The position numbers and the translations under genes are program-made. The notes under the pieces are model-generated. The model saw nothing but the letters and a program-made list of their open reading frames with translations. It was not told where the DNA came from and searched no databases. Below are positions 2,171-45,482 of a DNA stretch of 64,000 nucleotides, piece by piece (position 1 is the stretch's first letter; every line of letters begins with the position of its first letter). The stretch lies in contig NC_091985.1 in the NCBI RefSeq assembly GCF_044704955.1, positions 208,568,001 through 208,632,000 of the forward strand, in the 5' to 3' direction. The DNA is from Pristiophorus japonicus (taxonomy: Eukaryota).

Positions 2171-5100
2171 CTAGGAGCTAAATTAAAAAGTAGGACCTCA
2201 AAAGTAGTAATCTCGGGATTGCTACCAGTGCCACGTGCTAGTCAGAGTAGGAATCGCAGGATAGCTCAGATGAATACGTGGCTTGAGCAATGGTGCAGCA
2301 GGGAGGGATTCAAATTCCTGGGGCATTGGAACCGGTTCTGGGGGAGGTGGGACCAGTACAATCCGGACGGTCTGCACCTGGGCAGAATCGGAACCAATGT
2401 CCTCGGGGGAGTGTTTGCTCGTGCTGTTGGGGAGGAGTTAAACTAATATGGCAGGGGGATGGGAACCAATGCAGGGAGATAGAGGGAAACAAAAAGGAGG
2501 CAAAAGCAAAAGACAGAAAGGAGATGAGGAAAAGTGGAGGGCAGAGAAACCCAAGGCAAAGAACAAAAAGGGCCATTGTACAGCAAAATTCTAAAAGGAC
2601 AGAGGGTGTTAAAAAAACAAGCCTAAAGGCTTTGTGTCTTAATGCAAGGAGTATCCGTAATAAGGTGGATGAATTAACTGTGCAAATAGATGTTAACAAA
2701 TATGATGTGATTGGGATTACGGAGACGTGGCTCCAGGATGATCAGGGCTGGGAACTCAACATCCAGGGGTATTCAACATTCAGGAAGGATAGAATAAAAG
2801 GAAAAGGAGGTGGGGTAGCATTGCTGGTTAAGGAGGAGATTAAGGCAATAGTTAGGAAGGACATTAGCTTGGATGATGTGGAATCTATATGGGTAGAGCT
2901 GCAGAACACCAAAGGGCAAAAAACGTTAGTGGGAGTTGTGTACAGACCTCCAAACAGTAGTAGTGATGTTCGGGAGGGCATCAAACAGGAAATTAGGGGT
3001 GCATGCAATAAAGGTGCAGCAGTTATAATGGGTGACTTTAATATGCACATAGATTGGGCTAACCAAACTGGAAGCAATACAGTGGAGGAGGATTTCCTGG
3101 AGTGCATAAGGGATGGTTTTTTAGACCAATATGTCGAGGAACCAACTAGGGGGGAGGCCATCTTAGACTGGGTGTTATGTAATGAGAGAGGATTAATTAG
3201 CAATCTCGTTGTGCGAGGCCCCTTGGGGAAGAGTGACCATAATATGGTGGAATTCTGCATTAGGATGGAGAATGAAACAGTTAATTCAGAGACCATGGTC
3301 CAGAACTTAAAGAAGGCTAACTTTGAAGGTATGAGGCGTGAATTGGCTGGGATGGATTGGCGAATGATACTTAAGTGGTTGACTGTGGATGGGCAATGGC
3401 AGACATTTAGAGACCGCATGGATGAACTACAACAATTGTACATTCCTGTCTGGCATAAAAATAAAAAAGGGAAGGTGGCTCAACCGTGGCTATCAAGGGA
3501 AATCAGGGATAGTATTAAAGCCAAGGAAGTGGCATACAAATTGGCCAGAAATAGCAGCGAACCTGGGGACTGGGAGAAATTTAGAACTCAGCAGAGGAGG
3601 ACAAAGGGTTTGATTAGGGCAGGGAAAATGGAGTATGAGAAGAAGCTTGCAGGGAACATTAAGACAGATTGCAAAACTTTCTATAGATATGTAAAGAGAA
3701 AAAGGTTAGTAAAGACAAACGTAGGTCCCCTGCAGTCAGAATCAGGGGAAGTCATAATGGGGAACAAAGAAATGGCGGACCAATTGAACAAGTACTTTGG
3801 TTCGGTATTCACAAAGGAGGACACAAGCAACCTTCCGGTTATAAAAGGGGTCGGGGGGTCTAGTAAGGAGTAGGAACTGAGGGAAATCCTTATTAGCCGG
3901 GAAATTGTGTTGGGGAAATTGATGGGATTGAAGGCCGATAAATCCCCAGGGCCTGATGGACTGCATCCCAGAGTACTGAAGGAGGTGGCCTTGGAAAAAG
4001 TGGATGCATTGACAGTCATTTTCCAACATTCCATTGACTCTGGATCAGTTCCTATGGAGTGGAGGGTAGCCAATGTAACCCCACTTTTTAAAAAAGGAGG
4101 GAGACAGAAAACAGGGAATTATAGACCGGTCAGCCTGACATCGGTAGTGGGTAAAATGATGGAATCAATTATTAAGGATGTCATAGCAGTGCATTTGGAA
4201 AGAGGTGACATAGGTCCAAGTCAGCATGGATTTGTGAAAGGGAAATCATGCTTGACAAATCTTCTGGAATTTTTTGAGGATGTTTCCAGTAGAGTGGACA
4301 AGGGAGAACCAGTTGATGTGGTATATTTGGACTTTCAGAAGGCGTTCGACAAGGTCCCACACAAGAGATTGATGTGCAAAGTTAGAGCACATGGGATTGG
4401 GGGTAGTGTGCTGACATGGATTGAGAACTGGTTGTCAGACAGGAAGCAAAGAGTAGGAGTAAATGGGTACTTTTCAGAATGGCAGGCAGTGACTAGTGGG
4501 GTACCGCAAGGTTCTGTGCTGGGGCCCCAGCTGTTTACACTGTACATTAATGATTTAGATGAGGGGATTAAATGTAGTATCTCCAAATTTGCGGATGACA
4601 CTAAGTTGGGTGGCAGTGTGAGCTGCGAGGAGGATGCTGTGAGGCTGCAGAGCGACTTGGATAGGTTAGGTGAGTGGGCAAATGCATGGCAGATGAAGTA
4701 TAATGTGGATAAATGTGAGGTTATCCACTTTGGTGGTAAAAACAGAGAGAGAGACTATTATGTGAATGGTGACAGATTAGGAAAAGGGGAGGTGCAAAGA
4801 GACCTGGGTGTCATGGTACATCAGTCATTGAAGGTTGGCATGCAGGTGCAGCAGGCGGTTAAGAAAGTAAATGGCATGTTGGCCTTCATAGCAAGGGGAT
4901 TTGAGTACAGGGGCAGGGAGGTGTTGCTACAGTTGTACAGGGCATTGGTGAGGCCACACCTGGAGTATTGTGTACAGTTTTGGTCTCCTAACCTGAGGAA
5001 GGACATTCTTGTTATTGAGGGAGTGCAGCGAAGGTTCACCAGACTGATTCCCGGGATGGCGGGACTGACCTATCAAGAAAGACTGGATCAACTGGGCTTG

Positions 5101-5517
5101 TATTCACTGGAGTTCAGAAGAATGAGAGGGGACCTCATAGAAACATTTAAAATTCTGACCGGGTTAGACAGGTTAGATGCAGGAAGAATGTTCCCAATGT
5201 TGGGGAAGTCCAGAACCAGAGGTCACAGTCTAAGGATAAGGGGTAAGCCATTTAGGACCGAGATGCGGAGGAACTTCTTCACCCAGAGAGTGGTGAACCT
5301 GTGGAATTCTCTACCACAGAAAGTTGTTGAGGCCAATTCACTAAATATATTCAAAAAGGAGTTAGATGAGGTCCTTACTACTAGGGGGATCAAGGGGTAT
5401 GGCGAGAAAGCAGGAATGGGGTACTGAAGTTGAATGTTCAGCCATGAACTCATTGAATGGCGGTGCAGGCTAGAAGGGCTGAATGGCCTACTCCTGCACC
5501 TATTTTCTATGTTTCTA
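2171..5517 (+). mobile_element. Young CR1 LINE copy 1, 5'-truncated inside ORF1
   Basis: ORF1 esterase C-terminus (..DGLHL..GEELN*, stop 2446). ORF2 has APE endonuclease (NARS, ITETWL, GDFN, SDH) and RT (QGSVLGP, FADD). TTTCTATG tail, with CTA at both junctions. Confidence 0.97.
2446..5427 (+). pseudogene. CR1 ORF2 (endonuclease-reverse transcriptase) with a single nonsense codon
   Basis: ORFs 2290-3873 and 3907-5427 are in the same frame, separated only by TAG at 3871-3873 (GAG in the sister copies). Confidence 0.92.
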
Positions 5518-5518
5518 T

Positions 5519-13475: not shown

Positions 13476-16400
13476 CATAGAAACATAGAAACATAGAAAA
13501 TAGGTGCAGGAGTAGGCCATTCGGCCCTTCTAGCCTGCACCGCCATTCAATGAGTTCATGGCTGAACATTCAACTTCAGTACCCCATTCCTGCTTTCTCG
13601 CCATACCCCTTGATTCCCCCTAATAGTAAGGACCTCATCTAACTCCTTTTTGAATATATTTAGTGAATTGGCCTCAACAACTTTCTGTGGTAGAGAATTC
13701 CACAGGTTCACCACTCTCTGGGTGAAGAAGTTCTTCCGCATCTCGGTCCTAAATGGCTTACCCCTTATCCTTAGACTGTGACCTCTGGTTCTGGACTTCC
13801 CCAACATTGGGAACATTCTTCCTGCATCTAACCTGTCTAACCCCGTCAGAATTTTAAATGTTTCTGAGGTCCCCTCTCATTCTTCTGAACTCCAGTGAAT
13901 ACAAGCCCAGTTGATCCAGTCTTTCTTGATAGGTCAGTCCCGCCATCCCGGGAATCAGTCTGGTGAACCTTCGCTGCACTCCCTCAATAGCAAGAATGTC
14001 CTTCCTCAGGTTAGGAGACCAAAACTGTACACAATACTCCAGGTGTGGCCTCACCAAGGCCCTGTCCAACTGTAGCAACACCTCCCTGCCCCTGTACTCA
14101 AATTCCCTTGCTATGAAGGCCAACATGCCATTTGCTTTCTTAACCGCCTGCTGCACCCGCATGCCAACCTTCAATGACTGATGTACCATGACACCCAGGT
14201 CTCTTTGCACCTCCCCTTTTCCTAATCTGTCACCATTCACATAATAGTCTGTCTCTGTTTTTACCACCAAAGTGGATAACCTCACATTTATCCACATTAT
14301 ACTTAATCTGCCATGCATTTGCCCACTCACCTAACCTATCCAAGTCGCTCTGCAGCCTCACAGCATCCTCCTCGCAGCTCACACTGCCACCCAACTTAGT
14401 GTCATCCGCAAATTTGGAGATACTACATTTAATCCCCTCATCTAAATCATTAATGTACAGTGTAAACAGCTGGGGCCCCAGCACAGAACCTTGCGGTACC
14501 CCACTAGTCACTGCCTGCCATTCTGAAAAGTACCCATTTACTCCTACTCTTTGCTTCCTGTCTGACAACCAGTTCTCAATCCATGTCAGCACACTACCCC
14601 CAATCCCATGTGCTTTAACTTTGCACATCAATCTCTTGTGTGGGACCTTGACGAAAGCCTTCTGAAAGTCCAAATATACCATATCAACTGGTTCTCCTTT
14701 GTCCACTCTACTGGAAACATCCTCAAAAAATTCCAGAAGATTTGTCAAGCATGATTTCCCTTTCATAAATCCATGCTGATCTGGACCTATCATGTCACCT
14801 CTTTCCAAATGAACTGCTATGACATCCTTAATAATTGATTCCATCATTTTACCCACTACCGATGTCAGGCTGACCGGTCTATAATTCCCTGTTTTCTCTC
14901 TCCCTCCTTTTTTAAAAAGTGGGGTTACATTGGCTACCCTCCACTCTATAGGAACTGATCCAGAGTCAATGGAATGTTGGAAAATGACTGTCAATGCATC
15001 CACTATTTCCAAGGCCACCTCCTTAAGTACTCTGGGATGCAGTCCATCAGGCCCTGGGGATTTATCGGCCTTCAATCCCATCAATTTCCCCAACACAATT
15101 TCCCGGCTAATAAGGATTTCCCTCAGTTCCTCCTCCTTACTCGACCCCCCGACCCCTTTTATAACCGGAAGGTTGTTTGTGTCCTCCTTCGTGAATACCG
15201 AACCAAAGTACTTGTTCAATTGGTCTGCCATTTCTTTGTTCCCCGTTATGACTTCCCCTGATTCTGACTGCAGCGGACCTACGTTTGTCTTTACTAACCT
15301 TTTTCTCTTTACATATCTATAGAAGCTTTTGCAGTCTGTTTCAATGTTCCCTGCAAGCTTCCTCTCGTACTCTATTTTCCCTGCCCTCATCAAACCCTTT
15401 GTCCTCCTCTGCTGAGTTCTAAATTTCTCCCAGTCCCCAGGTTCGCTGCTATTTCTGGCCAATTTGTATGCCACTTCCTTGGCTTTAATACTATCTCTGA
15501 TTTCCCTTGATAGCCACGGTTGAGCCACCTTCCCTTTTTTATTTTTATGCCAGACAGGAATGTACAATTGTTGTAGTTCATCCATGCGGTCTCTAAATGT
15601 CTGCCATTGCCCATCCACAGTCAACCCCTTAAGTATCATTCGCCAATCCATCCCAGCCAATTCACGCCTCATACCTTCAAAGTTAGCCTTCTTTAAGTTC
15701 TGGACCATGGTCTCTGAATTAACTGTTTCATTCTCCATCCTAATGCAGAATTCCACCATATTATGGTCACTCTTCCCCAAGGGGCCTCGCACAACGAGAT
15801 TGCTAATTAATCCTCTCTCATTACATAACACCCAGTCTAAGATGGCCTCCCCCCTAGTTGGTTCCTCGACATATTGGTCTAAAAAACCATCCCTTATGCA
15901 CTCCAGGAAATCCTCCTCCACCGTATTGCTTCCAGTTTGGTTAGCCCAATCTATGTGCATATTAAAGTCACCCATTATAACTGCTGCACCTTTATTGCAT
16001 GCACCCCTAATTTCCTGTTTGATGCCCTCCCGAACATCACTACTACTGTTTGGAGGTCTGTACACAACTCCCACTAACGTTTTTTGCCCTTTGGTGTTCT
16101 GCAGCTCTACCCATATAGATTCCATATCATCCAAGCTAATGTCCTTCCTAACTACTGCCTTAATCTCCTCCTTAACCAGCAATGCTACCCCACCTCCTTT
16201 TCCTTTTATTCTATCCTTCCTGAATGTTGAATACCCCTGAATGTTGAATACCCCTGGATGTTGAGTTCCCAGCCCTGATCATCCTGGAGCCACGTCTCTG
16301 TAATCCCAATCACATCATATTTGTTAACATCTATTTGCACAGTTAATTCATCCACCTTATTGCGGATACTCCTTGCATTAAGACACAAAGCCTTTAGGCT

Positions 16401-16961
16401 TGTTTTTTTAACACCCTCTGTCCTTTTAGAATTTTGCTGTACAATGGTCCTTTTTGTTCTTTGCCTTGGGTTTCTCTGCCCTCCACTTTTCCTCATCTCC
16501 TTTCTGTCTTTTGCTTTTGCCTCCTTTATGTTTCCCTATATCTCCCTGCATTGGTTCCCATCCCCCTGCCATATTAGTTTAACTCCTCCCCAACAGCACG
16601 AGCAAACACTCCCCCGAGGACATTGGTTCCGATTCTGCCCAGGTGCAAACCGTCCGGATTGTACTGGTCCCACCTCCCCCAGAACCGGTTCCAATGACCC
16701 AGGAATTTGAATCCCTCCCTGCTGCACCATTGCTCAAGCCACGTATTCATCTGAGCTATCCTGCGATTCCTACTCTGACTAGCACGTGGCACTGGTAGCA
16801 ATCCCGAGATTACTACTTTTGAGGTCCTACTTTTTAATTTAGCTCCTAGCTCCTTAAATTCATTTCGTAGGACCTCATCCCTTTTTTTTACCTATGTCAT
16901 TGGTACCAACGTGCACCACGACAACTGGCTGTTCTCCCTCCCTTTTTAGAATGTCCTGCAC
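13476..16961 (-). mobile_element. Young CR1 LINE copy 2, 5'-truncated in ORF1, inverted relative to copy 1
   Basis: Near-identical to copy 1. ORF2 is broken by a 17-bp tandem duplication (about 16221-16254) and small deletions near 14250 and 13866. It interrupts the H2B-H2A spacer seen intact near 25160. Confidence 0.97.
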
Positions 16962-17558
16962 CTCATTCTCTCGCAAGCCCTTTATAAGTTTATTTTTCAA
17001 TTCCTGTTACGGTCAATCTGTTTATTAACCCGGGACTCCCTGCAGTGTAAAAACCCAGAATGGGAGTTTGTACAGAGACCAGAATGGGAGCAGTGTGAAC
17101 ACTCTATCCCTCTTCCCTTTTCACAGAAGGGCTCCCAGTTCTGGTCTCACTCCCGCCTGTGCGGAAGATCAATCCATGATTTGTGATTCCCAACATTGAC
17201 ACAGTTTGAGCTGGAATGTGCCCTGTTACAGAATCAGTGGGGATTGATTGCCGTCCGTTACAGACAGATTGACAGTGAACGCAAATTTAATTTTGATTGT
17301 AACAGCCTGGAATTAGTAAGGGAAATATGGAATAAAATAAAAGGAAGTAAAACCTGTTTGTAAACCTTTGGCTAATGGTGCATTTATTAACATAATCCGC
17401 ACTTTAAAAAATTATTGGCGGTATTTTTGAAATTAAAAATCTTTCGAGGTGTGACTGTTGAGGACAGGAATTTCCACCCTCGTTTCATTGGTGATCTCAA
17501 CAGACAATGGGTAAGGCGAGAGATTAACATTCAGCGGCGATTTCAGTAAAGAATCATC

Positions 17559-17870
17559 ATGACTGGAGGAGGTAAAGGAGGCAAAGGACTGGGTAAAGGC
17601 AGAGCCAAACGGCACCATAAAGTGCTCCGTAATAACATCCAGGGCATCACCAAACCAGCCATCTGCCACCTGGCTCGCCGTGGCCGTGTCAAGCGGATCT
17701 CGGGCCTGATCTACGAGGAGACCCGCGGGGTGCTGAAGGTTTTCCTGGAGAATGTGATCAGGGATGCGGTCATCTACACTGAACACGCCAATCGCAAGAC
17801 GGTCACTGCCATGGATGTGGTGTACGCTCTGAAACAGCAGAGCCGCACTCTCTATGGATTCGGCGGCTGA
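17559..17870 (+). pseudogene. H4: Histone H4, full-length ORF but diverged; probable pseudogene
   Basis: 12 substitutions relative to the canonical H4 at 28748-29059. Stem-loop is damaged (ggctcttctcagaccc) and there is no H4 promoter upstream. Confidence 0.85.
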
Positions 17871-18144
17871 ATAACATGACCCTTTTCCCCCAAACACAAC
17901 ACAAAGGCTCTTCTCAGACCCATCCACCTCCTCACAGAGAGAGCAGTGACCTGGGGAACGGGGGCGAGATAGTTGCTTTACACTTTGTTCTGTATAGATA
18001 TGTTTTTTGCCAAGATCTATATTGTGGTGTCAGGTGTTTTAAATCAGCATATACACGGTGGACAGAATGTCCTTTTAGTTTTCAAATCATAGACATTTAC
18101 GGGGCATTCCAGCTGAAGGTAATACTGAAAAAACGAATGTAGTT

Positions 18145-19415
18145 AGAACATAAAAACATAAGAAATAGGAGCAAATGTAGGCCATACGGCCCCTCGAGCC
18201 TGCTCCGCCATTTAATACGATCATGGACTCTGGTCTACTTCCCTGCCCCATATTCCCTTATTCCCTTATCATGAAGAAACTGTCTGTTTCTGTCTTAAAT
18301 TTATTCAATGTCCCAGCTCTCTGAGGCAGCGAATTCCACAGATTCACAATCCTCAGAGAAGAAATTTCTCCTCATCTCAGTTTTAAATGGGCGGCCTCTT
18401 ATTCTAAGATTAAGCCCTCTAGTTCTAGTTTCCCCTAGCAGTGGAAACATCCTCTCTGCATCCACCTTGTTAAGCCCCCTCATAATCTTAGTTTCGATAA
18501 GATCACCTCTCATTCTTCTGAATTCCAATGAGTAAAGGCCCAACCTACTCAACCTTTCCTCAAGTCAACCCCCTCATTCCGGAATCAACCTTGTGAAACT
18601 TCTCTGAACTGCCTCCAAAGCAAGTATATCCTTTTGTAAATATGGAAACCAAAACTGCATGCAGTATTCCAGGTGTGGCCTCACCAATACCCTGTACAAC
18701 TGTAGCAAGACTTCCCTGCTTTTATACTCCATCCCCTTTGCAATAAAGGCCAGATTCCATTGGCCTTCCTGATCACTTGCTGTACCTGCATACTAACCTT
18801 TTGTGTTTCATGCACAAGTACCCCCAGGTCCCGCTGCATTGCAGCACTTTGCAATCTTTCACCATTGAAATAATAACTTGCTCTTTGATTTTTTTCTGCC
18901 AAAGTGCATGACCTCACACTTTCCAATATTATACTCCATCTGCCAAATCCTTGCTCACTCACTTAGCCTGTCTATGTCCTTTTGCAGAATTTTAGTGTCC
19001 TCCTCACCCATTGCTTTTCCTCCCATCTTTGTATCGTCAGCAAACTTGGCTGCATTACACTCGGTCCCTTCTTCCAAGTCGTTAATATAGATCATAAATA
19101 GTTGGGGTCCTAGCACTGATCCCTGTGGCATCCCATTGGTTACTGATTGCCAACCCGGGAATGAACCATTTATCCCCACTCTCTGGTTTCTGTTTGTTAG
19201 CCAATCTGCTATCCATGCTACTATATTACCCCCAACCCCGTGAACTTTTATCTTGTGCAGTCAGTAACCTTTTATGTGGCACTTTGTCAAATGCGTTCTG
19301 GAAGTCCAAATATACCACATCCACGGCTTCCCCATTATCCACCCTGTTCATGACATCCTCAAAGAATTCCAGCAAATTTGTCAAACATGACTCCCCTTCA
19401 TAAATCCATGCTGTT
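18145..19415 (-). mobile_element. CR1 3' fragment with RT (different subfamily)
   Basis: SCLTNLLEFFED, QGSVLGPQLF, FADDTK, frameshifted. Tail (cataagaa)n. Confidence 0.92.
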
Positions 19416-19739
19416 ACATCCATGTTACAGCAGTGACAGATAAGAAAGGTGTTGAATTAAACGATGGGATGAAGGCAGCATCAGGGCGGAAGGACAGTGA
19501 GGGTCCCTTGCCCTCATAGAAGGACTCCCAAGTCCTGATCAGAAGTGACCCTCAGGCAATCTCAGTTATAAACCGGTCAATGTCTCGAACATGTAGAAAT
19601 CTAGATCGACATACACAGCAGCGAGTTTGCTGTTCAGATTATTGAATGTATATATAGGAAAAAACGTGAATTAACTTTCCTTATAAGTTTGGCCGTCATT
19701 AACCATTTTTGCCTGAGAGCAGAACAGAAACATAAAGAA

Positions 19740-20870
19740 ATTCTTTTAGAGTCTACCTGCAAAACATAAACATTAAACTGTGCCACCCGACCTGGGTGAC
19801 ACACCAGACATTTACAAGGCCCTTTTTTCCTTTTTTTGGTTTTTTTTTTGTGTTTTTTTTTTGTTTTTTTTTTTGGGCACTAAAATCACAATTTTTCCCC
19901 AGTGCCCCCTATAAAAGGGAAGGGGACACTAAAAGCACCGGCAATTAAAACAAATTAACTTTAAAACGTAAAATCAAATTAAAATTTGGTTGCCGGGCGT
20001 GATGATGCACTCCAGTCCCTCCGGTGCCCACCTCTCGCGGAAGGCCGCGAGCGTACCGGTGGACACCGCGTGCTCCATCTCCAAGGACACCCTGGACCGG
20101 ATGTAAGAGCGGAAGAGAGGCAGGCAGTCAGGTTGAACGACCCCCTCGACCGCCCGCTGCCTGGACCGGCTGATGGCACCCTTGGCCGTGCCCAGGAGCA
20201 GTCCTACGAGGAGGCCTTCGGACCTACCCGCTCCCCTCCGCACAGGGTGCCCAAAGATCAGGAGAGTGGGACTGAAGTGCAGCCAGAATTTCAGGAGCAG
20301 CCCCTTCAAATAGTGGAACAGGGGCTGCAACCTTGTGCACTCCATAAAAACATGGAACACGGACTCCTCCAGACCGCAGAAATTGCAGGCGGCCTGGGAG
20401 TCCGTGAACCGGCTTAAAAATTTGTTGCACGGCACTGCTCCGTGCACCACCCTCCAGGCCAAGTCCCCGATGAATAGTGGGAGGACCCCTGCGTAGAGTG
20501 CCCTCCATCGGGGACCCCCGCCTCCTCCGGACGGCAAGATGGTACGCCATGGCGTGTCCGGACGGCCGGCGAGGATGGCAAAGTTGAGGGTGTGCAGGAG
20601 CAGCCCGTACAGGAAACCCCTCCGCGCGGAACTGAAAGGCACGGAGGGGATTTCCCTGAGGCGGCTCAAGTTGTGAGGCGCCGGCCCCCGAGGGAGGTTC
20701 CGGGGTTTGGCACCGATGAGGAATTCCGTCCGGACGGGGGTCAGTTCGGACGGGATCTCCCCAAGTGCCTGAGCCTCCTCGATGCACCTAACGGAGTCAG
20801 GGCCCAGAGCTGTTTTTAGCGACTCGATGGCATCGGCCGCGTGGCGGACGTTGGCAGAATTTAGGCGCCG
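19740..20870 (-). mobile_element. 5'-truncated Tx1/L1-like non-LTR retrotransposon
   Basis: ORF2 C-terminus with CCHC zinc-binding region (CNFC..ESVFHVFMEC, WRVVHGAV). Perfect 15-bp TSD cagaaacataaagaa at 19725-19739 and 20871-20885. Confidence 0.88.
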
Positions 20871-21154
20871 CAGAAACATAAAGAACGGAGTATAAATCGG
20901 GAGGGGATGTCATTGATGACCGAATTCAAGAATTTGAGATTGTGGCGAGCAATAAATCTGATTGGTCCCTTTAAACATCCAATCAGAGAGATACAGAACA
21001 ATGGAAATTGACAACGGAGCTAATGAACCAATCACAATCGTTACCTTTACCCATCCCTTATTAGCATAGGGATGTGGGCGGAGTGTGGGGCTGCCTATAT
21101 AATACGAGCCCGGAGCAGACTTTCCTTCATATCTATAACTGACTGAACAAGACG

Positions 21155-21529
<375 letters not shown>

Positions 21530-22313
21530 AACTACACGCTGTCCTGACAACAAACCCCAAACACAACGGCTCTTTTAAGAGCCACCCACAACATCATTGA
21601 AAGAGCTGCACAAACGCATCACCCTTTAGACTGAATTTACTGTAATTATTTCCCGAACAAATGTGTGTGAGAACCTTTGTAGTTCCAGCTGTAGATTTAG
21701 TTTTGAATTCTCATAAAAAGCTTCACTGACCGGCTTGACCTTGGCGTCTCTGGAATTTGCTGCAGTGAGTAAACTACAAACACGGGCCCTGGTCGCTTTC
21801 CCTTTGTTCTCAGACTCGTTCATTCACAGCGCCTACCGACGAATTTATTTTGGGGGGCGGGGAAACTCCGATTTCAGTCGCATTCTCACTCAAGCCCTTT
21901 TCACATGTTTTTTTTATTCCGTTGCGCTCAGTCCGTTTATTAACCCGAGACTCCCCGCAGTGTAACAACCCAGAATGGGAGTTCTTAGAGACTAGAACAG
22001 GGGCAGTTTGAACACCCTGTCCCTCTTCTCTTTTTACAAAAGGACTCTCGGTTCTGGTCTCACTCCCACAGCAGCTCCTGTGAAAAGAAGTTCACTTTTA
22101 CAAAGATGGAGCTGGAATGTGTCCCGTTACACAATCAGTGGGGACTGAGTCCCGCCCGTTACAGACAGTTTGAAACTGAAGCCGAATTTAATCCTGATTG
22201 TAACAGGCTGGAATTTGCAAGGGGAACATGGAATAAGACAAAAGGAAACAAAGTGTTTTAAAGTATTTGGCTAATGGTGAAGTTGCTAACATAATCCGCA
22301 ATTTTAACAATTA

Positions 22314-22937
<624 letters not shown>

Positions 22938-23380
22938 AGCGGACAAGATTTAAACTTATAACCCAAAGGCTCTTTTCAGAGCCACTCACAATATATGTGA
23001 AAGGGCTGCTTACTGTATTAATGGAGACCTTGTTTTCAGGTACCAATAAATTGGTCTATTTCAGACCTGTATGCGGGAGTTTTCAGTTCCTGGTATCTGC
23101 ATTATGGTTTTCTGCTCACACAAACTGTTCTAGTTAGCAACTAATAATTAATCTACAGTTGTCAGAGACTCAAATTGTATAAATACCGCAAACGGTTCCC
23201 TAAATATTATTTAATCTATCAATGAAAGCTGTATGAAGAAAGTCGGCGGTTATTAAAAGGGCCTAGTTTAATTCTGGTCTGGTTTGAGAGTTTGAATGCT
23301 GGTTCTGTTTCCGGGATCTCCGGTCGTTCCGGGTTGTGTATTTCTCTCCTAAGCCGGTCAGTTTAGGCCGACACTAAGCA

Positions 23381-23520
23381 GCCAAGCACAAGACAGTCAC
23401 TGTCATGGATGTGCTGTATACTCTGAAACGGCAGGGCCGCACTTTCTATGGATTCAACGCGACCCTCTCCCCCAAGCAGAAAGCAAAGGCTCGTCTAAGT
23501 GCCACCCACCGCCTCACGGG
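23381..23520 (+). pseudogene. H4: Histone H4 3' fragment
   Basis: [25 protein letters not shown], followed by a degenerate stem-loop ggctcgtctaagtgcc. Confidence 0.85.
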
Positions 23521-23665
23521 GGGAGAGGAGGGGAGGGAGGGAGATACAGTTCATTTACATTTTGTTCGGTATAGATATATATTTTTCGCCAAGGTCTATA
23601 TGTTTTAAATCAGCATATGCACGATGGACGGAATATCCTTTTAGTTTCAGAATTATAGACATTTA

Positions 23666-23960
23666 TCATAGAAGCTTACAACACGGAATGAGGCCACTTC
23701 GGCCCATCGTGTCCGTGCCGGCCAACAAAAGGCTATCCAGCCGAATCCCACTTTCCAGCTCTCGGTCCGTAACCCTGCAGGTTACGGCACTTCAAGTGCA
23801 CGTCCAAGTAGTTTTAAATGTGGTGAGGGTTTCTGCCTCTACCACCCTTTCAGGCAGTGAGTTTCAGACCGCAGCCTGCGTGAAGATATTTCCCCTCTAA
23901 ATCCTCTACCAATTACTTTACATTTATGCCTCCTGTGCTAAGGGAAATAGGCCCTTTACG
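23666..23960 (-). mobile_element. Short CR1-related 3' fragment
   Basis: Matches the 3' end of the CR1 at 50640-51815 (ggcccatcgtgtccgtgccggcc, tctaccaccctttcaggcagtgag). Confidence 0.8.
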
Positions 23961-24269
23961 GCACAGAAGGTACGGCATATTCCAGGTGAAGGTAACACTG
24001 AAACAACTAATGTAGTTACAGCAGTGACAGATCAGAAAGGTGTTGAATTAAACGGTGGGAGGAGAGCGGAAGGACAGTGAGGGCCTTTTGCCTCATAGAA
24101 GGACTCCCAAATCCTAACCAGAAGTGACCCTCAGACAATCTCGGTTACAAACCGGTCAATGTCTGTCGAACATGTAGACATCTCGATCGATAAAGAACAG
24201 AATATGGCTCGGGAGGGGATGTAACTGATGACCTAATTCAAGAATTTGAGATTGTGGCGAGCAGTAAAT

Positions 24270-24414
24270 CTGATTGGATGTTTAAAGAGACCAATCAGAG
24301 AATTACAGAACAATAGAAATTGACAACGCAGCGAGTGAACCAATCACAATCGTTGCCTTCACCCATCCCTCATTAGCATAGGGCTGTGGGCGGAGTGTGG
24401 GGCTGCCTATATAA
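24270..24414 (+). promoter_or_regulatory. H2B promoter: CCAAT boxes, octamer variant, GC box, TATA
   Basis: ctcATTAGCATag at 24372-24379 (also 21060-21067), gggcgg, tatataa. Confidence 0.75.
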
Positions 24415-24466
24415 TGCGAGCTCCGAGCTAAGTTTAGGTCATGTCTGCGTCGGATTGAACAAAACG

Positions 24467-24844
24467 ATGCCTGAAGAGAAGAAATCAGTTACTGCCAAGA
24501 AAGGCGCCAAGAAAGTGATCAAGAAAACACCACCGAAGGGCGGTAAGAAGCGCAGGAAGTCGAGGAAGGAGAGTTACTCCATCTACATCTACAAAGTGAT
24601 GAAGCAGGTTCACCCCGACACCGGCATCTCCTCCAAGGCCATGGGCATCATGAACTCTTTTGTGAACGATATTTTTGAGCGCATCGCGGGTGAGGCTTCC
24701 CGCCTGGCCCATTACAACAAGCGATCCACCATCAGCTCCCGGGAGATCCAGACCGCCGTGCGCCTGCTGCTGCCCGGGGAGCTGGCCAAGCACGCCGTGT
24801 CGGAAGGGACAAAGGCGGTAACCAAGTACACCAGCTCCAAGTAA
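24467..24844 (+). CDS. H2B: Histone H2B (125 aa)
   Basis: MPEEKKS...[26 protein letters not shown]...YTSSK. Confidence 0.97.
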
Positions 24845-24884
24845 AACTCCACTCTGTCCTGATACAACAAACCAGAAACACAAC

Positions 24885-24927
24885 GGCTCTTTTAAGAGCC
24901 ACCCACAACGTCTCTGAAAGAGCTGCA
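24885..24927 (+). terminator. Histone 3' stem-loop and HDE
   Basis: ggctcttttaagagcc-accca followed by aaagagctg. Confidence 0.93.
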
Positions 24928-25689
24928 CAAACACATTACCCTTTAAATTCAATTTGCTGTAGTTATTTCCTGAGCAAGTGTTTGACAACATTTAAAGTTC
25001 CAGCTGTAGATTTAGATTTGAATTCTCAGATAAGCAGTTTTACTGTCCGGTTCAACCTTAGCTTCTCTGATGAATTTCCCTCCCAGTAAAGTGCACACAC
25101 TGTCCCTGGCCGCCTGCCAATGAATTATGATCTTGTTTTAGGAGGTGAAATTCAGACTTTAGTCACCTCATTCTCTCTCAAGCCCTTTACAATACAAAAA
25201 AAATTCTAGTTCGGGTCAACCCGCTTATTAATCCGAGATTCCGAGTGCAACGGCCCAGACTGGGAGTTCTTACAGAGTCCAGAACAGGGAGTTTGAATCC
25301 TGTGTCCCTCTTCTCTTTTCACAGAAGAACTCCCAGTTCTGGTCTCAATCCCGCCTGTGCGGAGGATCGATCCATGATCTGTGATTCCCAAATTGTACAA
25401 AGATTGAGCTGGAATGTGTCCCGTTACAGAACGTATGAAACTGAACCCGAATTTAAACCTGATTGTAACATCCTGGAATTTTGAAGGTAATATGGAATAC
25501 GGCAAAAGGAAATAAAAAGTGTTTGGAAATCTTTGGCTAATGGTGAATTTATTAACATAATCCGCATTGTAAAAATTATTGGCGGGGTTTTTGAAATTGA
25601 AGATTCGTTGGAAGTCGAACAGTAATTTTCGCCCTCTTTTCATTGGCAGGCGAAGCAGACGGTGATTGGTCAGCGGAAAAGACCAATGA

Positions 25690-26193
<504 letters not shown>

Positions 26194-26333
26194 AGCGGAC
26201 AAGATTTAATCTAATAACCCAAAGGCTCTTTTCAGAGCCACCCACAGGATCTGTGAAAGGGCTGCTTACTGTCTTAATGGAGTCAGAGACCTTTAATTCA
26301 TGTACCGATAGATTGGCCTGTTTTAGACCTGTA

Positions 26334-26600
26334 AACATAGAAAATAGGTGCAGGAGGCGGCCATTCGGCCCTTCGAGCCTGCACCACCATTCAAGAAGAT
26401 CATGGCTGATTATTCCCTCAGTACCCCTTTTCTGCTTTCTTTCAATATCCCTTTAGCCATAAGGGCCACATCTAACTCCCTCTTGAATATATCTAACGAA
26501 CTGGCATCAACAACTCTCTGCGGTAGGGAATTCCACAGGTTAACAACTATGAGTGAATAAGTTTCTCCTCTCAGTCCTAAATGGCTTACCCCTTATCCGT
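26334..26600 (-). mobile_element. Short CR1 3' fragment
   Basis: aacatagaaaataggtgcagg tail. Absent from the paralogous H2A flank near 23070. Confidence 0.88.
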
Positions 26601-27295
26601 ATGCGGGAGTTTTCAGTTCACGGTCTCTGCAGTACGGTTCTCTGCTCACACATACACTCTTGCCGTTAACAGCGAATAATTGAACTACAGTTGTCACTCA
26701 ACAATTGTATAAATACCGCCACCGGTTCTTTAAATATTCTTTAATCTGTCTGAAAACGAGAGAGTCGGCGATGATGAATTAATGTAGTAATAAAAGGGCC
26801 TAGTTTAATTCTGGTCTGGTTTGAGATAGTTTGAATGCTGGTTTCGTTCTCGGGAGCTCCGGCCGTTCCCGGGCTCTTTATTTCTCTGCTAAGCCGGTCA
26901 GTTTAGACCGCACTGCACAACACATACAGGATCCGGGTCAATTGCAGTGCTTCCCAGATCTGCCTGCCCCCATTCTCCGGCAACACCGAATAGGGAAATC
27001 TGTGTTCTGCCCCGGGGAACTTGGGGTCAGAGCGACGCAAAGCCGATGTCAGTTTCCGAAAATATTAAAGGGCTCATCAGTTAATCGTCAATAACTCACA
27101 TGTGAACTGAGCTGGTATATGAACACACGAGCAGTAATCAGTCCCACACCCTCTGCCCGTCCCTACAATAGGTTAATGAACAACACGAAACTCTGGTTAC
27201 AGGAGATCGCAGCTCTTTCCTTTGCTGATTTGGTGGCTCTGAAAAGAGCCGTTGTTGCACTTGGTGCTGAAGCTTCGAGCCGAGGCAGGGGNNNN

Positions 27296-27832
<537 letters not shown>

Positions 27833-28334
27833 TCAAGTTTGAACCAAGCACCGAGAGTGAAAATGAAGGGTGGGGATTACTGGGCCCTGATTGGCTGAAC
27901 TGAAACTGACAGTTGGTCAATTTCAAAAAGCCCGCCAATTTCAGAATATCAACCAACAGAGATTAAATAAAATCTAATTTCCCGCCAGCAATTTAAGAAT
28001 CCCGCTCTTTATAACGGCGATTGTGCCCCATTATAAGTCACCAATCCCATTCTGTCACATTCCGGTTTGAATTCTGTTCCATTCCGTGATCCGTCTGTAC
28101 CGGGCGGGAATAAATCCCCGGTCACTGCTTCCTGTAAACATAAAGTCCCGCATCAATCCCGCCAGTGCCGTCCCATTTAACCGATTCTCACACAGAAACC
28201 GCACATGACAGGAATTATCTGTGAGGGGAGACTGTAATGTCTGGGACTGTGTATCCTGCCCAGTAATTGTGACTGTCAGCCGGAATTTTTGATCTCTCAT
28301 ATTTACAATAGTTGTAAAATATTTAATAATTCCC

Positions 28335-28612
28335 ATATTCCTACAGCGACTACACTCCAAAAGTACTTCATTGGTCTTGTTCATTGGATGTGTTCGGGAG
28401 GGAGTTGGATGTGGTCCTTGCGGCTGAGGGGGGGCGGGGGTCGGGGAGTGGAGGTGCTGGAGTGGGTGATCAGCTGTGATCTTGTTGAATGGCGGTGCAG
28501 GCTCGAAGGGCCGAATGGCCTATTCTACTCCTGCACATATTTTCTGTTTCTATGTCTTGAGACGTTCGGTGGTCGTGAAAGGCGCTATATAAATCCAAAC
28601 CTTTCTTTCCAT
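28335..28612 (+). mobile_element. SINE 3' remnant with L2-like tail, interrupted by a CR1-type tail
   Basis: gactacactccaaaagtacttcattgg..gtgaaaggcgctatataaat; internal ggctcgaagggccgaatggcc. Confidence 0.6.
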
Positions 28613-28747
28613 TAATTAAACAGCCGAAACCATTTCCCAACCCAACTGTCCGCGTTCCGATCCCCAGGTCGCTGCTCTCTCTGTGAACCGGTGGGTGGCT
28701 CTTAGAAGAGCCTTTGTGTTGTGATTGGGGGAAAAGGGTCGAGTTAT

Positions 28748-29071
<324 letters not shown>

Positions 29072-29863
29072 TCACTCAAACAGCTGCTGAATGAGAAGTG
29101 AACTGCTGCCGGCTCCTTTTTATAGAGCCGGAGCCGACCTGACTGAGAAAGCGCAGAGTGAGAGAGGCGGGAAGGGGAGGAGACAGTCAAGATTGACAGA
29201 CAGAGCAGTGAGCGGCCTCTGATCTTCCAGCTCCGCCTCCAGCTTTCTGCAGCCGCCAATTTCAAACCGTTTTCCGACAATAGAACCGAAACAGACTCGG
29301 AATTTATATTCAAAGCTTCCAGGAACCAGAAGCTTTTAAATAAGGTCCCGTTACAATTAACAATCGCGAATATTCCCGCCTATATACAGCCCTTTCCCTG
29401 TCAATCTCAGACCTTGTTCCATCTCCCCACACTTCCTCTCACAGAAGGGTTCAGCAGTTTACAAACACCTTATTCCAGCTGATTTGGAGAATGTGGTGTT
29501 TGGGGTTTGAGTTGTGAGGCGGGGTATCTCCGCCAGTATCACCGTCTCACAGACTCTCCCCCTGAAAATGACAATGAGCAGGAACTGAGACTGGAGCTGA
29601 ACACATCCCCAGTTAGTGAGGTCCGGGCCGGACATCCCGTTCTCAATGTGTGTTTTATTGCAGACACTGGGGGAGGGGTGAGTGCAGCCAATGTCAGCGA
29701 GTCACCAGGGATCCTGGCTTCATGTTCAATGATTTCTGTCTGAAATCTGAGCCCGGCCCCGGGACAGGGATCATTTGATTCGGGGATCAACTCTTTTCTG
29801 AGAGATGTGGGTGGCTCTGAGAAGAGCCTTTGGGTTCAGATGTTTACAAGTTGCACTTTTTAT

Positions 29864-30562
29864 TTACTTTTTGAGCGCTGCTTTCTTGGGTTTTGCTGAT
29901 TTGGCCTTGGCCCTCGGTTTTTCCACCTTTTTGGCCACCTTCACCTTTGCGCCCGAGGCCTTCTTGGGGCTCTTGGGCGTCGCCGCTGTCGCCTTCTTCC
30001 CAGCCGCAGCTTTCGCTGTCTTTTTTACTGTTGGCGCCTTCTTGGTGTTCGTTTTCTTGGCCGGAGATTTCTTGGCTGCTGGTTTCTTGGCCGGAGATTT
30101 CTTGGCTGCTGGTTTCTTGGCCGGAGATTTCTTGGCTGCTGGTTTCTTGGTCGGAGATTTCTTGGCTACTGGTTTTTTGCCTGGAGATTTCTTGGCTGCT
30201 GGTTTCTTCACCTTCGTTCCCACTTTCCCCTGGTTTTCCTTCTTAGCGACTCTGAAGGAACCCGAGGCGCCCGTGCCCTTGGTCTGCACCAGGAAGCCAT
30301 TTGTCACATTCCTCTTGATACTGAACCTGATCTGGGACCCGCGCTTCTCCACATTCACGCCTTTGGCCGCCAGAGCCTTCTTTATCGCGGACAGGGACAT
30401 CCCCTTGCGATCGCCGCCATCGGCCACAACCTTGAGGATCTGTTCGCCCAACGTGGGACCGGCTGGCTTGGAGCGGGGAGCTGGCTTCTTCTTCTTGCTG
30501 AGAGCCTTGGTTTGAGCGGCGGCGGCAGGAGGAGCCGTTTCGGCGGCTGCAGTGTCAGTCAT
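29864..30562 (-). CDS. H1: Linker histone H1 (232 aa)
   Basis: [12 protein letters not shown].. globular domain ending [13 protein letters not shown], Lys/Ala/Pro tail. Stem-loop at 29813-29828. Confidence 0.95.
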
Positions 30563-30639
30563 GTCCGCGACTCTGTGAAAAATCTCTCTGACAGTCAGAG
30601 CTCGGTCAGAAATGAAACGGGAGGCGGCGGCACAGAGCA

Positions 30640-30713
30640 ACTTAAAGGCAGCGAGCGGACGGGGCGGAGACATCCTGCTGTCAGCTCCCCGCCCCTCCAG
30701 CCTCTCTGTGTTT
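30640..30713 (-). promoter_or_regulatory. H1 promoter: H1 box, GC box, TATA-like
   Basis: AAACACA at 30707-30713, GGGGCGGGG at 30687-30695, tttaag at about 30641-30646. Confidence 0.7.
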
Positions 30714-34532: not shown

Positions 34533-35481
34533 TTAGTTGAACTCCTCCCCAACAGCACTAGCAAACACTCCCCCTAGGACATTGGTTCCGGTCCTGCCCA
34601 GGTGCAGACCATCCGGTTTGTACTGGTCCCACCTCCCCCAGAACCGGTTCCAATGCCCCAGGAATTTGAATCCCTCCCTGCTGCACCACTGCTGAAGCCA
34701 CGTATTCATCTGTGCTATCCTGCGATTCCTACTCTGACTAGCACGTGGCACTGGTAGCAATCCCGAGATTACTACTTTTGAGGTCCTACTTTTTAATTTA
34801 GCTCCTAGCTCCTTAAATTCGTTTTGTAGGACCTCATCCCTTTTTTTTATCTATGTCGTTGGTACTAATGTGCACCACGACAACTGGCTGTTCTCCCTCC
34901 CTTTTTAGAATGTCCTGCATCCGCTCCGAGACATCCTTGACCCTTGCACCAGGGAGGCAACATACCATCCTGGAGTCTCGGTTGCGGCCGCAGAAACGTC
35001 TATCTATTCCCCTTACAATTGAATCCCCTATCACTATCGCTCTCCCACTCTTTTTCCTGCCCTCCTGTGCAACAGAGCCAGCCACAGTGCCATGAACTTG
35101 GCTGCTGCTGCCCTCCCCTGATGAGTCATCCCTCTCAACAGTACTCAAAGCAGTGTATCTGTTTTGCAGGGGGATGACCACAGGGGCCCCCTGCACTACC
35201 TTCCTTGCACTGCTCTTCCTGCTGGTCTTCCATTCCCTATATGACTGTGGACCCTTCACCTGTGGTACGACCAACTCGCTACACGTGCTACTCACGTCAT
35301 TCTCAGCATCGTGGATGCTCCAGAGTGAATCCACCCTCAGCTCCAACTCCACAACGTGGTCTGTCAGGAGCTTGAGCTGGACACACTTCCTGCAGATATA
35401 GTCGTCACGGACACTGGTGTCGTCCCTGAGTTCCCACATGGTACAGGAGGAGCATAACATGTGACCGAGCTGTCCTGCCAT
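34533..35481 (-). pseudogene. CR1 ORF1 (Cys zinc finger/leucine zipper and SGNH esterase), frameshifted at an A8 run
   Basis: CSSC..CRKC, IVIGDSIVR, STND, DGLHL. The frame changes at about 34841-34848. Confidence 0.88.
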
Positions 35482-44129: not shown

Positions 44130-45482
44130 TTAGAATCATAGAAAAATGACGACACAGAATGGGGCTATCTGTCCCATCGTGTCCGTGCTGGTGTACATCA
44201 TGTCCCATATTTTTCCCTCTAGTTGGTGGCCTTTACAATACACCTATTGTGTAACCTCTATTATTTCTTAACCATAGCCATATAGATTCTGTCCTTGACC
44301 CCTCCAGGACATCCTCTCTCTCCAGCATTGTAACATTCTCCTTAACCAATACTGCCACATCACCTCCTATCTGTCCTTCCCTATCTTTCCTGAACTCCTA
44401 TATCCAGGAATATTTAATACCCAATCCTGCCCTTTTTGAGCCAGGTCTCCGTTATTGCCATGACATCATATTCCATGCAGCTCACCAGCCTTGTTTACTA
44501 TGCTTCATGTGTTTACATACATACACCATAAACCCATCTTAGACCATTCTGTGTTCTCTCTTAGTCTGACCCCACCTAATACCTTACTATTTCTTGCTTT
44601 GGTGCTATCCGTCTCTCCCAATCCTTTGTGCCCTTTGTTTTTCCTTTATAATTTTACATCCTGGTGTCCATCCTCCTGCCAACTTAGTTTAAACCCTCCC
44701 CAATAGCACTACCAAACCTCCCCGCAGGGATATTGGTGCCGGCTCTGTTGAGGTGCAACCCGTCTGGCCTGTACAGGTCCCACCTCCCACATAAACGGTC
44801 CTAATGCCCCAGGAATCTGAAGCATCTCTCCAGCCATGCATTCATCGGCTCTATCCTACTATTTCAATACTCGCTCGCGCATGGCACCGGGAGTAATCTG
44901 GAGATTACTACTTTTGAGGTCCTGCTTTTTAATCTCTTTCCTAACTCCCTATAATGCCTGCAGGATCTCATCCAGTTTCTACCTCTGTCGTTGGTACCAA
45001 CTTGGACCACGACCTCTGGCTGTTCACCCTCCCTCCTCACAATGTTCTGCAACCATTCAGTGACATACTTAACCCTAACACCAGGGAGGCAACATACCAT
45101 CCTGGAGTCACATCTGTGGCCGCAGAAACACCTGTCTGCTCCCCTGACTATCGAAGTCCCTACCACTATTGCTTTTCCTATCTTCCTCCTTGCTCCCTCC
45201 CCCGCTGTACAGCTGAGCCACTCGTGGTGACATGGATTTGGCCCTGGCTATATTCCTCACCCTCACCAGTACTCAGAACGGAATACTGGTTGGAGAGCGA
45301 GATGCAGTAGTGTTTTATATAGATTTAGCATCAATTCCTGGCTTTGTTAACCTGTCCTGCCACCTCCAAAGAATTTTGCACAGGCATCCGCAGGTCTCTC
45401 TCTTCTTCCATCCTGTTAACATTGTACCATTTGGAATGTATTGTCTCTCATTCTTCCGACCAAAATGGACCACCTCACTGTA
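44130..45482 (-). mobile_element. Old rearranged CR1 fragments including an ORF1/ORF2 junction
   Basis: VGTSIVRG..MVCCLPG..VGTND esterase, junction at 44684-44693, endonuclease start, and an RT piece at 45310-45480. Confidence 0.82.

What the first reader, a model, noticed from the sequence alone, without database searches (positions are those of the whole stretch)
2437..2490. Viral-type slippery heptamer at the CR1 ORF1 stop: candidate -1 ribosomal frameshift making an ORF1-ORF2 fusion
Seen: ORF1 ends GAG TTA AAC TAA, i.e. G_UUA_AAC (2437-2443) in correct phase directly before the stop. ORF2 is in the -1 frame and reads KLIWQGDGN, about 80 nt before its first ATG (2524). Copy 2 is identical (16577-16583, minus). 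A distant old CR1 subfamily has the perfect U_UUA_AAC followed by TAA (44684-44693, minus), and its -1 frame reads KLSWQEDGH. So the heptamer and the WQxDG peptide are conserved while the sequence downstream of them is not. About 10 nt downstream lies G5-N2-G3-N10-G3-N7-G3, a possible G-quadruplex stimulator. Known: U_UUA_AAC is the coronavirus 1a/1b site, G_UUA_AAC is the equine arteritis virus site, and mammalian L1 ORF2 is made by reinitiation rather than frameshifting. Inference: these CR1s may express an esterase-endonuclease-RT fusion in gag-pol fashion. Against: copy 3 has G_UUC_AAC, and in-frame ATGs exist before the endonuclease domain. I cannot check whether this has been reported.
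Basis: partly seen in the sequence, partly recalled or inferred. Interest (0 to 1): 0.72.

Follow-up and report, generated by a model that had tools for sequence, protein, structure and literature searches.

The report
Conserved frameshift signal in CR1 LINEs
A very common vertebrate jumping gene (the CR1 LINE) ends its first gene on the same seven-letter 'slippery' sequence and a stop in shark and bird-type relatives, with its second gene one base back, so ribosomes likely slip there to make the copying enzyme as a fused protein; the copy in this window is a broken relic carrying that signal.

Summary
Confirmed: G_TTA_AAC at 2437-2443 plus TAA, with ORF2 in the -1 frame. All 18 CR1 lineages compared end ORF1 with TTA-AAC (5 were placed by the motif itself). 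Four control Leu columns use TTA in only 3 of 59 codons. The preceding amino acid varies, but its third base stays T or G. Ten different linker lengths all put the endonuclease in the -1 frame. One shark family of 29 copies and one unrelated locus have no in-frame AUG before the endonuclease's first catalytic Asn. G is invariant at +11, +12 and +14, but no conserved stem, pseudoknot, G-quadruplex or long-range duplex was found. Best reading: programmed -1 frameshift giving an ORF1-ORF2 fusion (0.72). Main rival: reinitiation (0.17), since 4 of 7 bird-type loci have TAG-NN-ATG in frame. No experiment shows slippage. Ten literature searches found no report for CR1; the original CR1 papers could not be read. 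A -1 shift is stated for Dictyostelium TRE5-A/TRE3-A. This scan noted the same signal before on other DNA. The window copy is 5'-truncated and dead.

The parts
2171..2446 (+). 3' remnant of CR1 ORF1 (SGNH/GDSL esterase C-terminus ending ...GEELN*); copy 1 is 5'-truncated
   Evidence: Pfam Lipase_GDSL_2 on the same stretch of copy 2, E 6.5e-05, below its curated cut-off; full-length relatives carry PF13472
2437..2443 (+). Slippery heptamer G_TTA_AAC (X_XXY_YYZ type; T_TTA_AAC in most lineages)
2444..2446 (+). ORF1 stop TAA directly after the heptamer (TAA or TAG in other lineages)
2454..2463 (+). G5-AT-G3 element; G5 begins 11 nt after the heptamer; candidate stimulator
   Evidence: G at +11, +12 and +14 in 15 of 15 lineages
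2437..5427 (+). ORF2 in the -1 frame: linker, APE endonuclease, RT; premature TAG at 3871-3873 in this copy
   Evidence: (Exo_endo_phos, RVT_1)
2524..2526 (+). First in-frame ATG downstream of the heptamer (family-specific position)
2290..2292 (+). Upstream ATG in the -1 frame, open to ORF2 in this copy and a minority of the family
5428..5518 (+). 3' UTR with predicted hairpin and TTTCTATG tail
16577..16583 (-). Same heptamer in copy 2 (element about 13485-16849, stop in the linker)
34536..34542 (-). Copy 3 junction with G_TTC_AAC
44684..44693 (-). Old CR1 copy: T_TTA_AAC + TAA

Best explanation
Esterase-type CR1 LINEs end ORF1 on a fixed T/G_TTA_AAC heptamer plus stop with ORF2 in the -1 frame, and a fraction of ribosomes likely slips back one base there to make an ORF1-linker-endonuclease-RT fusion while most would stop and release ORF1p. 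The predicted junction is ...GEELN-LIWQGDGN (or ...GEELK-LIWQGDGN). The pause is inferred to come from the adjacent stop together with a G run at +11, not from a local stem or pseudoknot. Shown: the motif, its phase, its conservation, the fixed frame and the lack of an early AUG in some lineages. Inferred: slippage, the fusion protein and the role of the G run. The copy at 2437 is a dead, 5'-truncated relic of an abundant young family that uses the G variant.
For: (1) L-N are invariant last residues in 27 aligned ORF1 proteins of 32-77% identity that I picked mostly for reaching the C-terminus; 107 of 108 proteins reaching the end of a profile that excludes these two residues continue L-N. (2) The terminal codons are TTA and AAC in 18 of 18 lineages; four control Leu columns use TTA in 3 of 59 codons and the control Asn column is AAT 10, AAC 5. 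(3) The codon before is E, C, A, S, G or H as lineage mode, ending in T in 16 lineages and G in 2. G_UU(A) is the equine arteritis virus form and U_UUA_AAC is among the most shift-prone heptamers (PMC5009743 passages). (4) 165 of 188 profile-anchored unique junctions read T/G-TTAAAC. (5) Ten distinct heptamer-to-endonuclease lengths (86, 98, 131, 140, 152, 161, 185, 233, 251, 266 nt) are all -1 frame; per copy 116 of 163. (6) The -1 frame is closed by a stop 2-6 codons upstream as the mode in 5 of 5 shark families and in 7 of 9 single loci. (7) Family S152 (29 copies) has no modal ATG up to the TETW motif, and L061's first Met lies after NARS; NARS and TETW align with ExoIII N7 and E34. (8) The stretch before the first ATG is stop-free in the -1 frame in 8 of 9 lineages where it is 16 codons or longer; shuffle probabilities 0.03-0.75 each. 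(9) The same motif ends ORF1 in 18 published consensus rows labelled as crocodilian, lizard, frog, coelacanth, bowfin, chimaera, ray and shark elements (PMC13343379 supplement).
Against: No experimental evidence. No conserved 3' structure: only 1 of 15 lineages has a folding z below -2, and that fold is weak (-7.4 kcal/mol). 4 of 7 bird-type loci with sequence past the junction (L063, L064, L065, L075) have an in-frame ATG two bases after the stop, and L066 has GTG there. Most other lineages have some in-frame ATG in the linker. S152 has in-frame CTG, TTG and GTG before the endonuclease. L086 has its endonuclease in another frame and AAG in place of the stop. The frame of the old S19x family could not be fixed because its G run varies in length. 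47 of 163 copies are out of frame, which I ascribe to decay. Lineages share ancestry, so the counts are not independent. The G run is missing in some published consensus rows (for example SquAca_CR1-17a, AldAff_Crack-2).
Confidence: 0.72

Rival explanations
1. Termination-reinitiation, as in SART1 and mammalian L1: ribosomes stop at TAA/TAG and restart nearby at an AUG or near-cognate codon, and the conserved letters are a positioning signal.
For: In-frame TAG-NN-ATG in 4 of 7 bird-type loci and GTG in a fifth. Reinitiation is the described route for SART1 and LINE-1, and tolerates non-AUG codons in caliciviruses (PMC5972666 and PMC2881922 passages). A TGGGA (TURBS core) lies 96 nt before the stop in most shark families.
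Against: Shark families have TGG at that codon; their first ATG lies 16-54 codons on or is absent. TGGGA is absent from the last 120 nt in 6 of 6 profile-anchored bird-type loci and in sharks is explained by Trp-Asp codons. It does not explain a perfect X_XXY_YYZ in ORF1 phase, nor a fixed frame where the ATG is distant.
Confidence: 0.17
2. The letters are a splice signal (branch point or acceptor) or an internal promoter that yields an ORF2-only mRNA.
For: CTAG in TAG lineages and AG|G at +10/+11 look like acceptors, and TTTAAA plus a G box resembles promoter elements (read from the sequence; consensus recalled).
Against: TAA lineages lack the first AG, there is no pyrimidine tract, and neither idea predicts phase with the ORF1 stop or an open -1 frame before the first ATG. 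AUG-less lineages would still lack a start.
Confidence: 0.06
3. Protein constraint only: ORF1p needs a C-terminal Leu-Asn and the DNA letters are inherited by descent.
For: Leu-Asn is invariant, and all lineages share an ancestor.
Against: Other conserved Leu and Asn codons in the same lineages vary freely, and the third base before TTA is kept while its amino acid changes. Third codon positions +11 and +14 are invariant G.
Confidence: 0.05

Closest known systems
Canonical vertebrate CR1 LINEs with esterase ORF1 (PMC13343379, passages and supplement rows seen)
   Same: Esterase ORF1, APE+RT ORF2, short 3' UTR with hairpin and repeat tail.
   Different: That paper's main text has 0 hits for frameshift, slippery, overlap, start codon or translation; the junction signal is not described there.
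Dictyostelium TRE5-A and TRE3-A non-LTR elements
   Same: APE-RT LINEs whose ORF2 is stated to need a -1 frameshift (PMC5911963 figure legend).
   Different: Another clade, host and ORF1. The primary paper could not be read, so site and evidence are unknown to me.
Viral -1 PRF sites U_UUA_AAC and G_UUA_AAC (IBV coronavirus, equine arteritis virus; PMC5009743 passages)
   Same: Same heptamers at the end of ORF1, with the polymerase ORF in the -1 frame.
   Different: These sites use a 3' pseudoknot or stem (recalled); none is conserved here.
PRRSV nsp2 frameshift, trans-activated by nsp1beta and PCBP (PMC5009743 passage)
   Same: A short low-complexity motif 11 nt 3' of the shift site instead of a structure.
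   Different: There the motif is C-rich (CCCANCUCC) with known binders; here it is G-rich and no binder is known.
Mammalian LINE-1 and silkworm SART1
   Same: Bicistronic LINE RNA that must express ORF2 at a low level.
   Different: Described as termination-reinitiation (63-nt spacer; stop-restart overlap) with no fusion protein.

Membership tests
CR1 LINE (esterase ORF1) | SGNH esterase ORF1 | tested here: met
   Homologues carry PF13472; window fragment E 6.5e-05, below cut-off; copy 3's N-terminal 215 aa had no Pfam hit
CR1 LINE (esterase ORF1) | ORF2 with APE endonuclease and RT | tested here: met
CR1 LINE (esterase ORF1) | 3' hairpin and short repeat tail, no poly(A) | tested here: met
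CR1 LINE (esterase ORF1) | RT phylogeny places it in the CR1 clade | not tested
   No tree built; the junction sequence resembles the published ScyCan_CR1-1a row by eye
Programmed -1 ribosomal frameshift site | X_XXY_YYZ heptamer in phase with ORF1 | tested here: met
   G_UU form listed for equine arteritis virus
Programmed -1 ribosomal frameshift site | Downstream ORF open in the -1 frame from the heptamer | tested here: met
   exceptions L086 and the unresolved S19x family
Programmed -1 ribosomal frameshift site | Nucleotide conservation beyond coding need | tested here: met
Programmed -1 ribosomal frameshift site | 3' stimulatory RNA structure a few bases downstream | tested here: not met
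   No conserved stem or quadruplex; no conserved long-range duplex. ViennaRNA does not predict pseudoknots, but the purine-rich region offers few partners.
Programmed -1 ribosomal frameshift site | Protein-bound or other non-structural stimulator | tested here: inconclusive
   Invariant G run at +11, same offset as the PRRSV motif; binding not testable
Programmed -1 ribosomal frameshift site | Measured frameshifting and a trans-frame product | not testable with these tools
   Needs a reporter assay, mass spectrometry or ribosome profiling
Termination-reinitiation (SART1, L1, calicivirus type) | Start codon at or near the ORF1 stop | tested here: inconclusive
   Met in 4 of 7 bird-type loci; not in 5 shark families, L061, L062 or L067
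Termination-reinitiation (SART1, L1, calicivirus type) | TURBS UGGGA upstream of the stop | tested here: not met
   Absent in 6 of 6 profile-anchored bird-type loci; positions differ in the other single loci

The most novel reading that the evidence does not exclude
Vertebrate CR1 LINEs have made their reverse transcriptase as a gag-pol-like esterase fusion since the shark-bony vertebrate split, and the slip is triggered without an RNA structure, by a protein (a host G-run binder or ORF1p itself) bound to a G run 11 nt past the heptamer: a G-rich counterpart of the PRRSV protein-driven frameshift in a cellular retrotransposon.
Probability: 0.25. Interest if true: 0.88.

Novelty: new variant of a known kind. 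Interest (0 to 1): 0.68.

Why it matters
CR1-group elements make up 22-34% of shark and ray genomes (PMC13343379) and about 12% of the chicken genome (PMC11835228). How LINEs translate ORF2 is described only for a few elements, mostly as reinitiation. A conserved -1 frameshift would mean that the CR1 enzyme is a fusion with the esterase ORF1, would fix the ORF1p:ORF2p ratio as in gag-pol, and would change how CR1 ORF2 starts are annotated. It gives a 40-nt cassette that one reporter assay can test, and the stimulator appears to be of an unusual, structure-free type.

Tried and rejected
G-quadruplex stimulator: tracts 3 and 4 are not conserved; a quadruplex was chosen in 3 of 15 folds. Local stem: none conserved. 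Long-range partner in ORF1: a C-rich, Pro-coding stretch 640-700 nt upstream was among the top five sites in 9 of 15 elements scanned, but registers differ and energies are mostly within the shuffled range; inconclusive, probably compositional. TURBS motif: not conserved. Sequencing runs: no RNA holder listed; contigs of 4 runs showed no joint in the 131-nt junction stretch and no variant above 8% at TTAAACTAA or the G run, while the first heptamer base was mostly T in three runs. Contigs and the 80% likeness filter limit this, so it is not counted for or against expression or splicing. A DNA search of the own genome returned nothing because common words are skipped. Viral contigs gave no relatives; prokaryote genome contigs gave 2 weak matches, not used. 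400 kb of evenly spaced genome stretches gave only 2 junctions. The Suh 2015 supplement had no motif hit in the 2 files searched, and file 1 was not searchable. Not held: the turtle CR1 paper looked up by a recalled PubMed id, Kojima 2005, Alisch 2006, Kapitonov and Jurka 2003, Marschalek 1992. The modal linkers of two sister families differ at 26 codons, none synonymous: the linker is open and in frame but shows no amino-acid conservation.

Full report
Observation. The window holds several CR1 LINE copies in a histone and zinc-finger gene region of a 5.9-Gb genome whose closest ORF1 matches are shark proteins. At 2437-2446 the sequence is G TTA AAC TAA, in phase with ORF1, and the -1 frame runs VKLIWQGDGN through a linker into an APE endonuclease and RT. 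Copy 1 is dead: it begins near 2171, inside ORF1, and has a TAG at 3871-3873. In this copy the -1 frame is also open upstream from 2287 with an ATG at 2290, which is the minority state: 16 of 23 modal-length family copies have a stop 6 codons upstream and 6 of 23 are open for 51 codons.

Data set. I searched the own genome with five ORF1 proteins or fragments and one fragment of the old copy, taking 30 loci each. I added 40 further listed matches, 400 kb of evenly spaced stretches and 44 metagenome loci, many of them cut short or not CR1. One query ended at the junction and three were whole ORF1 proteins ending in L-N, so retrieval was slightly biased to intact ends; two excluded it. Junctions were anchored with a profile of the ORF1 end that leaves out the last two residues; it was built from 119 proteins ending in L-N. 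Of 266 hits, 12 scored under 30 bits, 31 did not reach the model end or lay at a locus edge, 223 remained and 188 were unique. 165 of 188 read T- or G-TTAAAC; the other 23 are single changes, local deletions or mis-anchored rows. Clustering on the linker gave families S185a (window family; G variant 25 of 29, T 3, GTTCAAC 1), S185b (T 42 of 45), S233 (30 of 33), S152 (26 of 29), S19x (17 of 25), S161 (6 of 6, one duplicated insertion), S152b (2 of 3) and small clusters or singletons.

Is it more than Leu-Asn coding? I compared 18 lineages: 7 own-genome families (modal codons), 6 profile-anchored bird-type loci and 5 loci placed by the TTAAAC motif at the end of the ORF1 match (L061, L062, L063, L069, L086; partly circular). 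Small own-genome clusters were left out. The last two codons are TTA and AAC in 18 of 18, and in 13 of 13 without the motif-placed rows. In the same alignment four conserved Leu columns use TTA in 3 of 59 codons, with 3 to 6 codon types each, and a conserved Asn column is AAT 10, AAC 5. The codon before encodes E, C, A, S, G or H, yet ends in T in 16 lineages and G in 2. So positions 2-7 are fixed and position 1 is T or G, which are two heptamers named for viral -1 sites (PMC5009743, passages). 'Bird-type' is my label from likeness to bird-annotated ORF1 proteins; L061 and L062 are distant and unassigned. Published consensus rows in the supplement of PMC13343379 show the motif at an ORF1 end, read by eye, in 11 of 12 TTTAAACTAG hits, 6 of 8 TTTAAACTAA hits and 1 of 1 TTTAAACTGA hit seen (2 not seen); 0 of 5 GTTAAACTA hits seen were at an ORF1 end (2 not seen). 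That search was by motif and has no denominator; the species behind the row abbreviations are my reading.

Frame and start codons. The distance from the Leu codon to the endonuclease start differs widely (86, 98, 131, 140, 152, 161, 185, 233, 251, 266 nt), but all ten lengths give the -1 frame. A free frame would do so about once in 59,000 if lengths were independent, which they are only in part. Per copy, 116 of 163 are -1, 29 frame 0 and 18 +1. L086 is out of frame and lacks the stop; S19x could not be resolved. The -1 frame is shut by a stop 2-6 codons upstream in all 5 shark families tested (mode) and in 7 of 9 single loci; the other two are open for 38 codons without an ATG. The first in-frame ATG after the stop comes after 26, 16, 54 and 49 codons in S185a, S185b, S233 and S161, and is absent as a mode in S152 up to the TETW motif; L061's first Met is past NARS. 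NARS and TETW align with N7 and E34 of E. coli exonuclease III (E 0.009), which I recall as active-site residues, so an AUG-started ORF2p would lack part of the active site in those lineages. The pre-ATG stretch is stop-free in the -1 frame in 8 of 9 lineages where it is long enough to test; the exception is the decayed S161 insertion. Against: L063, L064, L065 and L075 have ATG two bases after the stop in frame, L066 has GTG, and S152 has in-frame CTG, TTG and GTG. Reinitiation, alone or beside slippage, is therefore not excluded.

Stimulator. Across 15 lineage representatives, G is invariant at +11, +12 and +14 after the heptamer and present in 14 of 15 at +8, +13 and +18; +11 and +14 are third codon positions of the -1 frame. 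No local structure is shared: 14 of 15 folding z-scores lie between -1.3 and +0.6. Searches for a long-range partner, upstream or at the element's 3' end, gave no conserved register. The offset equals that of the protein-bound PRRSV motif, 11 nt 3' of its shift site, and a nearby stop is reported to be needed at an umbravirus site (and 58 passages); both are analogies, not tests.

Mechanism. Shown: motif, phase, conservation, frame, AUG-less lineages. Inferred: most ribosomes end at L-N-stop and release the esterase ORF1p; a minority slips -1 on UUA AAC, reads CUA next and makes ORF1p-linker-endonuclease-RT. I put this at 0.72, reinitiation at 0.17, splicing or an internal promoter at 0.06 and pure protein constraint at 0.05.

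Literature. Ten full-text searches listed no paper describing a frameshift at the CR1 junction; I saw listings and abstract starts for most hits. Passages only were read in PMC11835228, PMC5009743 (first 300,000 of 449,034 characters held; 0 whole-word hits for CR1), PMC2881922, PMC13343379 (plus supplement rows), PMC2734521, PMC5006619, PMC5972666, PMC5911963 and PMC3905857; PMC4316615 supplements were searched for one motif. PMC5911963 states that TRE5-A and TRE3-A need a -1 frameshift for ORF2, so the mechanism is not new to LINEs. The original CR1 descriptions and subscription papers were not available, Repbase and Dfam notes were not searched, and bioRxiv supplements are closed; an earlier proposal for CR1 may exist. 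The scan's own notes record the same signal in other genomes; they are not independent support. Two gave leads that I followed (TRE5-A; tail pairing).

Verdict. A real, deeply conserved recoding-type signal in a known family, best explained as a programmed -1 frameshift, untested by experiment, with an unexplained structure-free G run. New variant of a known kind; interest 0.68.

Noticed in passing
L217 and L223 (G000 C17 and C5): Two copies share a chimeric layout: S185a junction, linker and endonuclease start, followed by the S233 linker (428 nt), still in the -1 frame. Possibly a recombinant subfamily.
   Followed up: no
window 44300-45400: The old CR1 copy occurs in 17 near-identical copies on C9 202-224 Mb and unplaced contigs, which points to segmental duplication of this region.
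   Followed up: no
window 17400-30800: Histone gene cluster (H1, two H2A, two H2B, H3 with the N-masked stretch 27292-27425, two H4) interleaved with CR1 copies; C2H2 zinc-finger arrays at about 46-47, 55-56 and 62 kb.
   Followed up: no
L031-L060 (family S19x), junction: The G run after the stop is highly variable in length between old copies, up to more than 20 G, which scrambles the frame.
   Followed up: partly
window 2450-2595 versus family S185b: The modal linkers of the two sister families differ at 26 codons and none is synonymous, which may indicate fast or positively selected change in the linker.
   Followed up: partly
window 2290: An upstream ATG in the -1 frame is open to ORF2 in 6 of 23 copies of this family after loss of the usual upstream stop.
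   Followed up: partly
window 19974-20909 (minus): C-terminal part of another LINE-like ORF with a CxxC...HxxxxC end, unlike CR1 (motif reading recalled).
   Followed up: no
PMC13343379 supplement rows SquAca_CR1-18 and SquAca_CR1-3: TTTAAACTAR also occurs in the 5' UTR of these consensuses.
   Followed up: no
P0012, P0133: CR1 ORF1 proteins filed under bacterial names (Pseudomonas, Klebsiella), likely vertebrate contamination of those records.
   Followed up: no
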